64,000 nt of DNA from Octopus sinensis. Lineage: Eukaryota. Under the pieces are notes generated by a model. It did not search any database and was not told the DNA's origin. It was given only the letters and a program-made list of their open reading frames with translations. The translations under genes and the position numbers were made by a program. Below, piece after piece: positions 48,253-64,000 of this stretch (its first letter is position 1; each line of letters starts with the position of its first letter). The stretch spans positions 44,082,001 through 44,146,000 of the forward strand of contig NC_043014.1 of assembly GCF_006345805.1 (NCBI RefSeq). Direction: 5' to 3'.

Positions 48253-48982
48253 TTTCCCGTTTTCTTCTCAGATGTACTCGTCTTTAGCCGATTTCTCTTT
48301 CTGCTTAGTTGATTCTTTATTACCCACTAGGGGCGACACAGAGGGGGACACCAAGAGACATGGGGACATAGAACATTATAATTAAAATTTATGAAAAATG
48401 AATTGTTAAGTGAAAGAAAATGATAAAATGAAAGCGATACCAACGGCCCCATCCGTTAGCATCACTTACCTGTCCTTTGTTTTTCATCGTCACTTGAATG
48501 TTCTTTGCCAATACCCAAGAAACAATATTGGTGATTCTTTATTACCCACTAGGGGCGACACAGAGGGGGACACCAAGAGACATGGGGACATAGAACATTA
48601 TAATTAAAATTTATGAAAATGAATTGTTAAACGAAAAAATGATAAAATGAAAGCGATACCAACGGCCCCGTCCGTTAGCATCACTTACCTGTCCTTTGTT
48701 TTTCATAGTCACTTGAATGTTCTTTGCCAATACGAATAAATTCCATATCCATTCTTACTCCGAAATACTCATCCATATTTTCCACGAATTCATCGCTCAT
48801 TCTTATATCATTCACCTCCCAATTCTCCCTTTCACCATAAACTCACCATAAACTCATCAAAGTTCTTCTTTTCAATCACAGCATACCTAGTCTCACCAAC
48901 ATCATACCATTTATACACTTCCATTAGACTTTTAACTTCTTTCTGTTCAGTCATAGTACAAATGTACGGCTTGATATCGATT

Positions 48983-50107
48983 TCAATCTCTTGTGTGTGT
49001 GTATTCTTTTTTTTTCTTTTGTTTTCTTGTTGGGGGGGAGCGGGTGGGTTCAATGTCTGCATGGATAGGGTGGGACTCAGAGGGCGTGGGTGGTTTTGGG
49101 GTGGATTGGAGTTCCATATTATTTTCTTTTCCACGTATTCTTCTCTTCCTCTTATTTCCAGCTTCCTTCCATTTCTGTGTATTCTCTTCCTCGTCTACTG
49201 TCTCCTTCTCCTCTGGTTTCTGCTTCTCTCTGTGTGGTTCGGAATCCTTTTCTTTCCCTGGGGGAGGGCAGAAGGCTCTTATGTGACCCCTCAGGCCACA
49301 CTTGTAACAACGTGGAGCCCTGCCCTCCACCCACACTCTCATGATCACGTCTCCCAGTCTGATGCTTTCCGCCAGGTCCACCAGTACCTCGGTCTCTGCC
49401 TGTACGTTCAGCTCCACTGTTACGCCTCTCCAGCCCTCGGACTTAACCGAGGCATGGAGAATATCCACTTCGTCCTCGTGGCCGCTGATCACAGCCGCCA
49501 CAATCCACTCTGCCTCCACGTTTGGTGGCACTCCCTCCACCCTTATTCGTGTAATCCTCCTGTTTAAATACGTAGGTAACAGTGTTACCTTTTCTGACTT
49601 CACCGCCTTCGCCGCCATCTTCCTCGCTGCAGATTCACTTTTAAAATGTACCACAACGGTACCGTACTTGGATCCTCGAGTCAGAAAATTAATTTCCTCC
49701 TCAGTTCTTCGCAGGGCTTCCTCTATCCATTCCATGGTTACAACTTCTACCCTCTTCCTTTCGTTTGCGAACACCCTGTAAATAATGGTCCTCTTATCAT
49801 ACCATTCTTTTCTCCTGGGTGTCGGTGATAGTTCCACCTCACCGCTTTCCTTTTTCATGTATTTCTGGTAACTTGGCAACTTGGCCATGTCGACCCCTTT
49901 CTCTTCCGCCTTCTTGGTTACACCGGCATAGGTATAACTCAGCTTCTCTTCCAATTTCCTTGCTGCCATTTCTAGCTCCTTCTCAGACGTAGACAAGTCT
50001 GATAAAGACTCGAAAACTCCAGGCCTTTCTTCCATCAGCTTCATTGCAATTGCCTGTTCCAGCTCCTCATCTGTCGTGGACAAGTCTGTTAGAGACTCAT
50101 AGTCCAT
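48983..50107 (-). CDS. LINE ORF1/gag-like protein with CCHC knuckle; C-terminal domain frameshifted
   Basis: CYKCGLRGHIRAFC; RRM-like YGTVVVHF/RIRVEGVPP; C-terminal domain continues in the 48832-49134 frame after a poly-A run. Confidence 0.8.
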   Translation of the reverse strand: MDYESLTDLSTTDEELEQAIAMKLMEERPGVFESLSDLSTSEKELEMAARKLEEKLSYTYAGVTKKAEEKGVDMAKLPSYQKYMKKESGEVELSPTPRRKEWYDKRTIIYRVFANERKRVEVVTMEWIEEALRRTEEEINFLTRGSKYGTVVVHFKSESAARKMAAKAVKSEKVTLLPTYLNRRITRIRVEGVPPNVEAEWIVAAVISGHEDEVDILHASVKSEGWRGVTVELNVQAETEVLVDLAESIRLGDVIMRVWVEGRAPRCYKCGLRGHIRAFCPPPGKEKDSEPHREKQKPEEKETVDEEENTQKWKEAGNKRKRRIRGKENNMELQSTPKPPTPSESHPIHADIEPTRSPPTRKQKKKKEYTHTRD

Positions 50108-50385
50108 TTCCTTCTGTCTGACAGACCGAAAACGGCCGCCAAAACAGAAAAAAGTTTAACGCGCCGAACGAGCGAAACGCGAAACCGCGTCAACGCCGTT
50201 CAGAATTTCCACAACAACAACAACGCTTTTTGTTCTTTTTTACCGAATTTTACGAGCTATTTCTTTATTACCCACTAGGGGCCACGAAGAGGGGACATTA
50301 CAAAACATGAGGGACATAAAACAATGCGGTTAAATTATGATTAAATGAATGTTAAAAATGAAAAAATGATAACATGAAAGCAATG

Positions 50386-61120: not shown

Positions 61121-61318
61121 GAAATGAAAGTGAAGTTTGATAACTTCAACTAAGAATTGAAACCGCGTCGTAGATGGTAATGTACTCCATGCAAAACAAT
61201 AAGATTGTATAAAAGAAAAATAATAAGACGGACGTTGAAATTTTGGAATGGTTTATTTAAGGTCAGTTTCTGAAGTCAGAACAAAGATTTGCTTCATTTC
61301 TATTATTTCTTACAGAAT
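61121..61318 (+). promoter_or_regulatory. Orphan upstream module of a probable 9th 4TM copy
   Basis: GAAATGAAAGTGAAGTTTGATAACTTCAACTAAGAATTGAAACCG..TTTAAGGTCA..TTTCTTACAG; inverted paralogue of 42465-42662. Confidence 0.72.
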
Positions 61319-62908
61319 TTCGCTGGTTCTGCGAGTTACACTTTTTCTGTTTTGGCGGCCGTTTTTCGGCCTGTCAGACAGGAGGAAATGGATGACCACT
61401 CCCTAGTGGAGGAGTCGGAGGAGGAATGGATATTTGAGAGCTTGTCGGAGACATCGAACTCTGAAGACGAGCAAATCGGTGATGTAAATAATGTGGAGAC
61501 AAAAAACAGGTAAACGTACGCAGGAGTTGCAAAAAAGAAGACGGAACAGGAAAATGAAATAAACCTAGAAAAATTGCCAGGTTTCCAGAGGTATATGAGG
61601 AAGGACAGCGGCGAGGTGGAACTGGAACCACCACCAAAGAGAAAGGAATGGTACAATAAGAGGACCATAATTTACAGGGTGTTCCTGAACGAAAGAAAGA
61701 AAATAGAGATCGTAAACATGGAATGGATAGAGGAGGCCCTCAGAAAATCGGAGGAGGAAATCATTTTTCTGACTCGAGGATCGAAGTACGGTACTGTAGT
61801 GGTACATTTTAAAAGTGAGACTGCAGCGAGGAAGATGGCGGTGAAGGCGGTGAAGTCAGAAAAGGTAACACTTTTACCTATGTACATGAATAGAAGGATT
61901 ACACGAGTAAGGGTGGAGGGAGTGCCACCAAACGTGGAGGCTGAATGGATTGTGGCGGCTGTGATCAGCGGCCACGAGGAGAAAGTAGATATTCTCCATG
62001 CCTCGGTCAAGACCGAGGGCTGGAGAGGAGTAACAGTAGAGCTGAACGTGCAGGCGGAGAGCGAGGTACTGGCGGACCTGGCGGAGAGCATTAAATTGGG
62101 AGACGTGATTATGAGAGTGTGAGTGGAGGGCAGAGCTCCATGTTGTTACAAGTGTGGCCTGAGGGGCCACATAAGAGCCTTCTGCCCTCCCCCACCAAGA
62201 GAAAAGGAAATCGTTGAGGAAACTCTAAAAGAGGAGGCCCCAAAAGAAGAAGAAATGAAAAAGAAGCAGACGGAAAGGGAAACGACAGAGGAGGAGGAGA
62301 TGCAAAAAGAGTGTGAGGAGGGCAGAAAGAAGAAAAAAGGAAAGAAAAGGAAAAACTGTGCGAAGCCCCAACCCACCCCAACACCACCCACACCCTTGGA
62401 GACCCATCCTGCCCCCGCAAACAGCAATCCCACCCACTCCCCGCCTACAAGAAAAACGAAAACAGACACACAGAACATACAAAAGCCCCAGTCCTACTTT
62501 TTATGTGTTGTGAGGAAGGGGGATACCGAGAACGCAAGAAAGCTTTTTGAAGACAATGTATGGCAGGAGTATGAGGACGGAAGTTATGCGGTGTTCGATT
62601 TTGAACTCATGGGCTCTTTGATGAGCAAGTGCAATGAACTACGTATAAATTGTTTTTCAGAATACATGAAGGATGATATGATAGAGAGGTATGAGAGAGA
62701 AATGAAAGGTGAGGTGAAAGACTTTGGAATCGTGATAGGAAACGGAAAGGTAAGTGATGCTGGCGGAGGGGGCCGTTAGCATCGCTTTCATGTTATCATT
62801 TTTTCATTTTAACATTTCATTTAATCATAATTTTAATCGCATTGTTTTATGTCCCCCATGTTTTGTAATGTTCCCTCTTCGTGGCCCCTAGTGGGTAATA
62901 AAGAAATA
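61319..62908 (+). mobile_element. ORF1-only element with two in-frame stops
   Basis: ORF 61388-62779 nearly identical to 50386-51777, but TAA at 61511 and TGA at 62120; same 3'UTR and tail. Confidence 0.9.
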
Positions 62909-64000
62909 GGATATTTGAGAACTTGTCGGAGACATCGAACTCTGAAGACGAGCAAACCGGTGATGTAAATAATGTGGAGATAAAAAATAGGAAAACGTAC
63001 GCAGGAGTTGCAAAAAAGAAGACGGCACAGGAAAAGGAAATAAACCTAGAAAAATTGCCAGGTTTCCAGAGGTATATGAGGAAGGACAGCGGCGAGGTGG
63101 AACTGGAACCACCGCCAAAGAGAAAGGAATGGTACGATAAAAGGACCATTATTTACAGGGTGTTCGCAAACGAAAGAAAGAAAATAGAAGTTGTAAACAT
63201 GGAGTGGATAGAGGAGGCCCTGAGAAGATCGGAGGAGGAAATCATTTTTCTGACTCGAGGATCGAAGTACGGTACGGTAGTGGTACATTTTAAAAGTGAG
63301 ACTGCAGCGAGGAAGATGGCGGCGAAGGCGGTGAAGTCAGAAAAGGTAACACTTTTACCTATGTATTTGAATAGAAGGATTACACGAGTGAGGGTGGAGG
63401 GAGTGCCACCAAACGTTGAGGCAGAGTGGATTGTGGCGGCTGTGATCAGCGGCCACGAGGAGGAAGTGGATATTCTCCATGCCTCGGTCAAGACCGAGGG
63501 CTGGAGAGGCGTAACAGTGGAGCTGAACGTGCAGGCAGAAAACGAGGTACTGGTGGACCTGGTGGAAAGCATCAGATTGGGAGACGTGATTATGAGAGTG
63601 TGGATGGAGGGCAGAGCTCCACGTTGTTACAAGTGTGGCCTGAGGGGCCACATAAGAGCCTTCTGCCCTCCCCCACCAAGAGAAAAGGAAATCGTTGAGG
63701 AAGCTCCAAAAGAGGAGGCCCCAAAAGAGGAAGAAATTAAAGAGAAGCAGACGGAAAGGGAAACGACAGAGGAGGAGGAGATGCAAAAAGAGTGGGAGGA
63801 GGGCAGAAAGAAGAGAAAAGGAAAGAAAAGGAAAAACTGTGCGAAGCCCCAACCCACCCCAACACCACCCACACCCTTGGAGACCCATCCTGCCCCTGCA
63901 AACAGCGATTCCACCCACTCCCCGCCTACAAGAAAAACGAAAACAGACACACAGAACATACAAAAGCCCCAGTCCTACTTTTTATGTGTTGTGAGGAAGG
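62909..64000 (+). mobile_element. 5'-truncated ORF1-type element in tandem, runs off the window
   Basis: Begins GGATATTTGAGA directly after the previous tail; reading frame appears open to the window edge. Confidence 0.88.

What the first reader, a model, noticed from the sequence alone, without database searches (positions are those of the whole stretch)
48311..64000. Young, diversified family of ORF1-only (half-LINE) retroelements
Seen: ~1.7-kb units with a short 5'UTR, one ORF (acidic N-terminus, RRM-like region, CCHC knuckle, K/E/P linker, ~100-aa variable C-terminal domain), a 3' hairpin and the shared tail. There is no RT or endonuclease, yet TSDs and 5' truncations show retrotransposition. 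One copy is intact (463 aa). The core is near-identical between 48983-50107 and 50386-51777, while the N- and C-termini are swapped or diverged. At least five C-terminal variants occur (18.4, 39.1, 39.5/39.9, 48.8, 50.4 kb). Established: HAL1 elements are ORF1-only L1 derivatives. Inference: an independent invertebrate Tx1-derived equivalent with a modular, rapidly evolving C-terminal domain.
Basis: partly seen in the sequence, partly recalled or inferred. Interest (0 to 1): 0.75.

Follow-up and report, generated by a model that had tools for sequence, protein, structure and literature searches.

The report
Octopus half-LINEs that swap end domains
An abundant 1.7-kb repeat family in this likely octopus genome encodes only the predicted RNA-binding protein of a LINE retrotransposon, ends in the same 45-base tail as intact LINEs whose enzyme it likely borrows (a strategy known from other animals), has shuffled its protein's end domain between lineages, and shows landing-site preferences that differ by lineage and may be inherited through its RNA.

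Summary
Confirmed and extended. Of 181 ORF1 cores >=50% identical to the window's, 174 run straight into a 45-nt tail, 0 into ORF2 and 7 are undetermined. All 33 ORF2-linked ORF1s are only 33-45% identical. The tail is shared with young intact L1/Tx1-group LINEs, a SINE and a second, independent ORF1-only family. ORF1 is predicted as two RRMs, one CCHC knuckle and a C-terminal domain with no clear fold match, and it is under purifying selection. C-terminal diversity is old and shuffled by recombination (core and C-terminal trees reject each other, AU p<0.001); fast adaptive change is not shown. Copies carry TSDs, form head-to-tail arrays and reuse fixed sites in other repeats, one shared with the LINE. 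First target bases differ by lineage; a prediction noted beforehand partly held (3 of 7, p=0.0015). ORF1-only LINEs are a known kind (HAL1, HeT-A, Ag-Sponge); eight literature searches found no cephalopod case, and Repbase/Dfam were not available. The scan found this family before on other DNA of this genome (e1-9986588, e1-8665859). New variant of a known kind; interest 0.5.

The parts
50258..51945 (-). Full-length ORF1-only element, type B (about 170-nt 5'UTR, ORF, hairpin, tail)
50386..51777 (-). Open 463-aa ORF1: acidic N-terminus, two predicted RRMs (aa 93-165, 170-246), one CCHC knuckle (253-266), K/E/P linker, C-terminal alpha/beta domain (369-450)
50378..50413 (-). Predicted 15-bp RNA hairpin over the stop codon, preceded by a splice-donor-like AGGTAAGT (165 of 175 copies)
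   Evidence: covariation weak
50258..50303 (-). About 45-nt 3' tail with AATAAA a few bases from the end and no poly(A); shared with autonomous LINEs, the SINE and the second ORF1-only family
48532..50257 (-). Type A element, about 25 nt short at the 5' end; ORF 48983-50107 frameshifted before its C-terminal domain
51968..52094 (-). 5'-truncated 3' end of a type A element, upstream of type B in the same array
52095..52111 (-). 5' copy of the 17-nt target-site duplication enclosing the three-piece array
48515..48531 (-). 3' copy of the 17-nt target-site duplication
48310..48514 (-). 5'-truncated type A 3' piece, no duplication of its own seen
61318..62908 (+). Type B element lacking its first 100 nt, stops at codons 42 and 245
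62909..64000 (+). 5'-truncated type B element directly behind the previous tail; continues about 390 nt past the window and ends in the tail
   Evidence: L024
18354..18771 (+). 5'-truncated type C element with a 13-16-nt target-site duplication
38876..39389 (-). 5'-truncated type D element inserted in opposite orientation inside a type E copy, about 20-nt duplication
38837..39873 (+). 5'-truncated type E element interrupted by the type D copy
39876..40253 (+). Second, shorter type E copy directly behind the first tail
52481..53002 (+). Tandem 184-185-nt SINE-like units ending in the same tail (one of several such arrays in the window)

Best explanation
This is a genome-wide family of 1.7-kb repeats that encode only an ORF1 protein and end in a 45-nt tail shared with intact L1/Tx1-group LINEs, whose endonuclease and reverse transcriptase likely copy them into new sites. 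SHOWN: ORF1-only structure, shared tail, target-site duplications, 5' truncations, purifying selection, mosaic N-terminus/core/C-terminus, one exact insertion site shared with the LINE. INFERRED: (1) a Pol II transcript is translated, and ORF1p binds its own RNA and helps it compete for the partner's ORF2p, which is why ORF1 stays conserved; (2) ORF2p recognises the tail and starts target-primed reverse transcription there; (3) because AATAAA sits only a few bases from the element's end, the RNA likely runs a little way into the donor's flank, and these bases pair with the nicked target, biasing each lineage to sites like its donor's; (4) arrays grow both by re-insertion at the regenerated site (mixed arrays) and by DNA-level duplication between TSDs (units with identical truncation points); (5) C-terminal domains are swapped by template switching or recombination in the conserved blocks on both sides.
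For:: 174 of 181 cores >=50% identical are followed by the tail (median 688 nt after the core), none by ORF2, 7 undetermined; 33 ORF2-linked cores are 33-45% identical; the family is one clade (100/99, stem 0.63) with no ORF2-bearing row. L057 carries ORF1 (459 aa) plus ORF2 (1131 aa; APE, RVT_1, zf-RVT; best PDB match human L1 ORF2p) and the same tail; 151 RT matches, the 150 listed at 87-100%; tail alignment across five groups; dN/dS 0.16-0.27 in the RRM/CCHC core; 44 copies with a full open frame. AU p=0.0008 and 0.0002; one flank shared by 7 LINEs and 6 ORF1-only copies, whose 5' junctions differ; lineage bias in first target bases. Pairing of a read-through RNA 3' end with target DNA is shown for R2Ol (PMC6530143, passages).
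Against: No retrotransposition assay. The search scores only the best 150 of 14,214 candidates, so rare ORF2-bearing relatives could be missed; 7 cores were undetermined. Only 19 of 66 independent flank entries showed a >=12-nt duplication within 1.1 kb (2 of them doubtful), and several copies at the shared site lack one. The target-bias test held only in part: CC 3 of 7; B 2 of 3 new unique sites; A-ATA 0 of 1; four B copies ran into a family head starting GC. Which LINE subfamily is the partner is not shown. Hairpin covariation is weak.
Confidence: 0.86

Rival explanations
1. Same element, but landing sites are set by protein only: several partner LINE subfamilies have endonucleases with different sequence preferences, and each ORF1-only lineage used a different partner at a different time.
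For: Autonomous subfamilies sit at different recurrent flanks. Target choice of non-LTR elements is mainly set by the endonuclease and Tx1 families often target other repeats (PMC4494074, passages).
Against: Bias follows sub-lineages that differ only in the last tail bases (A-TCA: CC 8 of 15 against 0 of 51; B: G[AG] 9 of 12 against 7 of 54, post hoc). Unique sites resemble the lineage's own head sequence over 7-11 nt (L094, L211, L225). None of the autonomous flanks printed begins with CCAAA.
Confidence: 0.45
2. Recurrent sites and arrays come mainly from DNA-level amplification (the host repeat moved with its passenger, unequal exchange, or assembly duplication), not from repeated targeting.
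For: Copies at site T1 have identical junctions, and flank homology runs 400-560 nt. Arrays of units with the same truncation point and a target-derived spacer exist (L203: 3 such units plus a shorter first one; L211: 2 units).
Against: At the site shared with the LINE, 8 ORF1-only copies show different 5' junctions, and three element kinds use it. Mixed arrays hold several lineages (L033).
Confidence: 0.25
3. The units are passively deleted or truncated copies of an ordinary two-ORF LINE, or a domesticated host gene family.
For: Public databases hold relatives as uncharacterised Octopus and Argonauta proteins; ORF1 is under purifying selection.
Against: No ORF2-bearing element has a close ORF1; the 3' end is constant; copies are intronless, interspersed on 35 contigs, with TSDs and 5' truncations.
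Confidence: 0.04

Closest known systems
HAL1 (half-L1) of mammals (PMC5753468 and PMC5786205, passages; the original paper PMC2923044 was not held)
   Same: Non-autonomous, encodes only ORF1p, comes from the L1 group, arose more than once.
   Different: ORF1 here is predicted as two RRMs plus a CCHC knuckle; the 3' end is a fixed 45-nt tail without poly(A), shared with a SINE; arrays, recurrent targets and C-terminal swapping. Mammalian L1 ORF1p layout and poly(A) ends are recalled, not read.
HeT-A and ORF1-only telomeric elements of Drosophila (PMC5537684, PMC13534243, passages)
   Same: ORF1-only, conserved protein, head-to-tail arrays mixed with an RT-bearing partner; about 40% of telomeric families there lost ORF2.
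   Different: Jockey clade and telomere-restricted; here interstitial, with TSDs, L1/Tx1 group, short 3'UTR.
Ag-Sponge of Anopheles (named in PMC5786205, passage only)
   Same: ORF1-present bipartite non-autonomous LINE in an invertebrate.
   Different: CR1 clade; details not read.
Crocodilian Tx1 families and SINEU; Keno, Kibi, Koshi (PMC4494074, passages)
   Same: Tx1-type LINEs that prefer sites in other repeats, with a SINE partner.
   Different: The passenger here keeps a protein, and several targets are used by different lineages.

Membership tests
ORF1-present bipartite non-autonomous LINE (Kojima 2018) | Encodes ORF1 but no ORF2 | tested here: met
   174 of 181 tail, 0 ORF2, 7 undetermined
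ORF1-present bipartite non-autonomous LINE (Kojima 2018) | ORF1 and 3' end homologous to an autonomous LINE | tested here: met
   core 33-45% identical with shared invariant residues; tail alignment
ORF1-present bipartite non-autonomous LINE (Kojima 2018) | Hallmarks of retrotransposition (TSD, 5' truncation, dispersed copies) | tested here: met
ORF1-present bipartite non-autonomous LINE (Kojima 2018) | Mobilised in trans by the partner's ORF2p | not testable with these tools
   inferred from shared tail and shared exact site
ORF1-present bipartite non-autonomous LINE (Kojima 2018) | 5'UTR derived from the autonomous element | not tested
   5'UTRs were not aligned to the LINE 5'UTRs
HAL1 proper | Derived from mammalian L1, with L1-type ORF1p and poly(A) end (recalled) | tested here: not met
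   tandem RRM + CCHC model; no poly(A) after the tail; named relatives are cephalopod
HeT-A | Restricted to telomeres | tested here: not met
   interstitial positions on 35 contigs
HeT-A | Head-to-tail arrays mixed with an RT-bearing partner | tested here: met
   77 of 175 copies directly followed by family sequence; arrays ending in a LINE
Tx1 clade (partner LINE) | APE-RT-zinc ORF2 of the L1 group | tested here: met
   Pfam; best PDB match L1 ORF2p, E 1e-64
Tx1 clade (partner LINE) | RT groups with reference Tx1 families rather than L1 | tested here: inconclusive
   one hit named 'Transposon TX1 149 kDa protein' among the 120 listed; no reference tree built
Tx1 clade (partner LINE) | Target preference for other repeats | tested here: met
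   7 LINE copies in one flank cluster (23 LINEs with a tail; sample biased to young copies)
Catalogued Repbase/Dfam family | Match to an existing entry | not testable with these tools
   no such library available

The most novel reading that the evidence does not exclude
A guild of protein-coding parasites of one LINE clade (two independent ORF1-only families plus a SINE) in which each lineage inherits its landing-site preference through the few flank bases carried at its RNA end, so that target choice is RNA-guided and passed on from insertion to insertion, while lineages trade an end domain of unknown fold that may decide which wins access to the LINE enzyme.
Probability: 0.35. Interest if true: 0.78.

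Novelty: new variant of a known kind. Interest (0 to 1): 0.5.

Why it matters
ORF1-only LINEs are described from few clades (L1, Jockey, CR1), and why they keep ORF1 is open. This genome has two young, high-copy, independent cases, intact partners and a SINE on one tail. That makes a natural system to test cis versus trans roles of ORF1p and competition for ORF2p. If target bias is inherited through RNA, it offers a simple route by which target-specific retrotransposons arise, and a handle for directing insertions. Practically, these ORFs are mis-called as host genes in public Octopus annotations.

Tried and rejected
Word-index protein search with the 463-aa ORF found nothing at E<=0.001 among 6786 candidates; the HMM search did find relatives, so that blank means nothing. 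Pfam gave only a sub-threshold CCHC knuckle. C-terminal domain fold: no Foldseek match better than E 0.16; best VIA Z 4.6, rmsd 3.1, 61 aligned (YebC), among ferredoxin/ACT-like folds; two ESM Atlas searches gave no usable hit. This shows neither a known nor a new fold. Homology of this domain to the C-terminal domain of autonomous ORF1s is inconclusive: hhalign probability 0.2%; HMM scores up to 8.9 bits against a shuffled maximum of 8.1 in 440. Expression: no RNA holder listed; contigs of four runs only guessed to be RNA cover most of the element; no conclusion drawn. Rejected: positive selection on the C-terminal domain (dN/dS below 1 in every comparison with usable dS); strict polarity 'LINE always last in the array' (both orders occur); one strict target consensus (63 independent flank clusters among 98 terminal junctions); truncation of a normal LINE. 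One motif scan was too loose and its output was cut; only its printed parts were used. PMC2923044 was not held. Supplements were not read; the O. vulgaris repeat library of PMC13282606 may hold this family unnamed.
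Full report
WHAT IS IN THE WINDOW. On the minus strand, a 127-nt type A 3' piece (51968-52094), a full type B element (50258-51945; open ORF of 463 aa) and a type A element (48532-50257; frameshifted) lie head to tail inside one 17-nt duplication (52095-52111 and 48515-48531). A further truncated piece follows (48310-48514). 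On the plus strand, a type B copy with two stops (61318-62908) is followed directly by a 5'-truncated copy that ends in the tail beyond the window (L024). Truncated copies of three more C-terminal types lie at 18.4 and 38.8-40.3 kb, one inserted inversely inside another. A and B share 155 of 178 core residues but only 24 of 56 N-terminal and 38 of 78 linker residues.

IS IT ORF1-ONLY GENOME-WIDE? The core search gave 14,214 first-look candidates; the 150 scored are 63-99% identical and lie on 35 contigs. I fetched DNA around 149 of the 150 (C11498 left out), plus 20 of 151 RT matches. In this DNA there are 227 distinct ORF1 cores. Of the 181 at >=50% identity, 174 are followed by the tail (median 688 nt after the core), 0 by ORF2, and 7 are undetermined. 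Of the 46 below 50%, 33 are followed by ORF2, 2 by the tail, and 11 are undetermined. Forty-four tail-followed copies keep a full open frame. In a tree of 67 cores the family is one clade (100/99, stem 0.63) without an ORF2-bearing row (midpoint root, long public rows unsure). Of the 10 top profile hits looked up, 9 carry Octopus or Argonauta names, mostly uncharacterised, and 1 is unnamed; hence 'likely octopus'.

THE PARTNER. L057 holds ORF1 (459 aa), ORF2 (1131 aa; endonuclease, RVT_1, zf-RVT) and the same tail. Its best solved relative is human L1 ORF2p (E 1e-64), and one of 120 listed homologues is named Tx1 149-kDa protein. It has 151 RT matches, the 150 listed at 87-100%, many with frames of about 1130 aa. 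The last 45 nt align across family 1, five autonomous copies, two SINE copies and a second ORF1-only family. That family has 150 scored matches, shows the tail and no ORF2 in 23 of 24 loci, and falls in a separate clade. ORF2 loss therefore happened at least twice, or one of the two has an unsampled ORF2-bearing relative.

THE PROTEIN. AlphaFold2 on 22 sequences gives two RRM-shaped domains, a CCHC knuckle, a helix, a disordered linker and a folded C-terminal domain. Foldseek matches tandem-RRM proteins at E about 2e-5. The C-terminal domain alone folds as beta-alpha-beta-beta-alpha-beta-alpha-beta (pLDDT 77) with no clear match. dN/dS is 0.16-0.27 in the RRM/CCHC core, and 0.23 (type B, 12 copies) and 0.69 (type A, 22 copies) in the C-terminal domain. 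Divergence is patchy. L001 and L028 are 89-97% identical in the core but 19% in the C-terminal domain (dS 1.9). L074 and L053 are 50-67% in the core but 87% in the C-terminal domain (dS 0.07). Trees of 16 of the 43 aligned intact copies (redundant ones dropped at 96.5%) reject each other's topology (AU p 0.0008 and 0.0002). Eight C-terminal types were seen, in 12 combinations with N-terminal starts. The domain is bounded by conserved blocks, a PT(H/R)SPPTRK motif and the hairpin block. So modularity is shown; fast adaptive evolution is not.

INSERTION PATTERN. Duplications of about 12-21 nt flank solo copies (19 of 66 independent entries, 2 doubtful; more). 77 of 175 copies are directly followed by family sequence. 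Some arrays are uniform (9 units on C6), some mix lineages and end in a LINE. Units with the same truncation point and a target-derived spacer (L203, L211) point to DNA-level duplication as one cause. Among 132 flanks, one is shared by 7 LINEs and 6 ORF1-only copies; others hold 8 (T1), 8 (one SINE position) and 6 copies; 65 are single. At the shared site, 8 ORF1-only copies have different 5' junctions, which argues for separate events by one machinery. First target bases depend on lineage: B G[AG] 9 of 12 against 7 of 54; A copies ending TCA, CC 8 of 15 against 0 of 51 (post hoc). I noted this as a prediction and then read 22 of 40 new loci (the other 18 lay on stretches seen before). A-TCA: CC at 3 of 7 new unique sites (p 0.0015 at 19% C), and 6 of 7 within one mismatch of CCAAA (criterion chosen afterwards). 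B: 2 of 3 new unique sites (p 0.025) and 3 of 3 known sites, while 4 copies ran into a family head starting GC. A-ATA: 0 of 1. In solo copies these bases are also present upstream, so they belong to the target.

MECHANISM. Most likely the RNA makes its own ORF1p and presents the tail to the LINE's ORF2p (0.86). AATAAA lies a few bases from the element's end, so cleavage would fall in the donor's flank (inference from general poly(A) rules, recalled). Those bases could pair with the nicked target, as read-through R2Ol RNA does (PMC6530143, passages). The rival, that endonucleases of different partner subfamilies set the bias (PMC4494074, passages), is about equally likely.

KNOWN VERSUS NEW. 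ORF1-present non-autonomous LINEs are a named class: HeT-A (Jockey), HAL1 (L1), Ag-Sponge (CR1) (PMC5786205, passages; PMC5753468, passages). About 40% of Drosophila telomeric families are ORF1-only (PMC13534243, passages); HeT-A arrays were read in PMC5537684 (passages). Eight searches listed no cephalopod or Tx1-derived case. The O. vulgaris repeat paper (PMC13282606; part 1 of 3 and passages) lists 13 recently active L1-Tx1 families but has no occurrence of ORF1, HAL1 or non-autonomous. PMC9115989 and PMC12988792 (passages) do not describe such elements in the passages shown. Supplements, Repbase and Dfam were not seen. Earlier unreviewed notes of this scan describe what appears to be the same system on other DNA of this genome. 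I had reached the half-LINE and RNA-pairing readings before seeing them, and they are not independent support.

VERDICT. Real; new variant of a known kind; interest 0.5. The boldest open reading, RNA-inherited target preference in a guild of LINE parasites, has probability 0.35 and interest 0.78.

Noticed in passing
window 7474-8076, 16036-17169, 21718-22029, 30095-30928, 41802-42401, 47656-48252 (all -), 55248-55895 (+); more in L024, L041: Tandem family of intronless ORFs of about 100-380 aa with a low-complexity N-terminus and about four hydrophobic segments; no convincing Pfam match in the 6 scanned (one ThiD2 score on a repeat stretch).
   Followed up: partly
window 48310 and 61318-64390: Both ORF1-only clusters sit about 35-60 nt upstream of the ATG of one of these membrane-gene paralogues, next to a pyrimidine-rich, acceptor-like stretch.
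   Followed up: partly
L042:1820-3223 (-), L151-L174: Second, independent ORF1-only family (468 aa, different C-terminal domain, same tail), very young (top matches 98-100%), often stacked with the LINE.
   Followed up: partly
L053:4524-5000: The repeat that hosts the site shared by LINEs and both ORF1-only families itself holds a decayed ORF1 fragment (tblastn E 4e-6).
   Followed up: partly
window 50410-50417 (-): A splice-donor-like AGGTAAGT near the stop codon in 165 of 175 copies; an acceptor-like stretch precedes the ATG, so splicing between array units is possible; untested.
   Followed up: no
window 13839-14207, 23539-23902, 33759-34488, 52481-53002, 54557-54928, 59216-59582: Tandem 183-187-nt units of the SINE-like repeat that shares the tail.
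   Followed up: partly
window 35661-35984 (+) and about 58500-59000 (-): Fragments that look by eye like ORF2 C-termini of L1/Tx1-type LINEs, the second with a different A-rich end; Pfam blank for the first.
   Followed up: no
window 43557-43968 and 12439-12533 (+): Fragments of large-subunit rRNA and 5S rRNA (Rfam).
   Followed up: no
window 520-1175 and 53479-53815: 39-bp (16.8 copies) and 29-bp (11.9 copies) minisatellites.
   Followed up: no
P0017, P0152, P0153, P0024: Public O. vulgaris gene models (P0024 not looked up by name) consist of one or two copies of the type A C-terminal domain, likely false gene calls on arrays; they show the lineage is shared with that species.
   Followed up: partly
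L003, L019, L196: Three type B copies at the same site, which in L003 lies about 200 nt upstream of the ORF1 of an autonomous LINE.
   Followed up: partly
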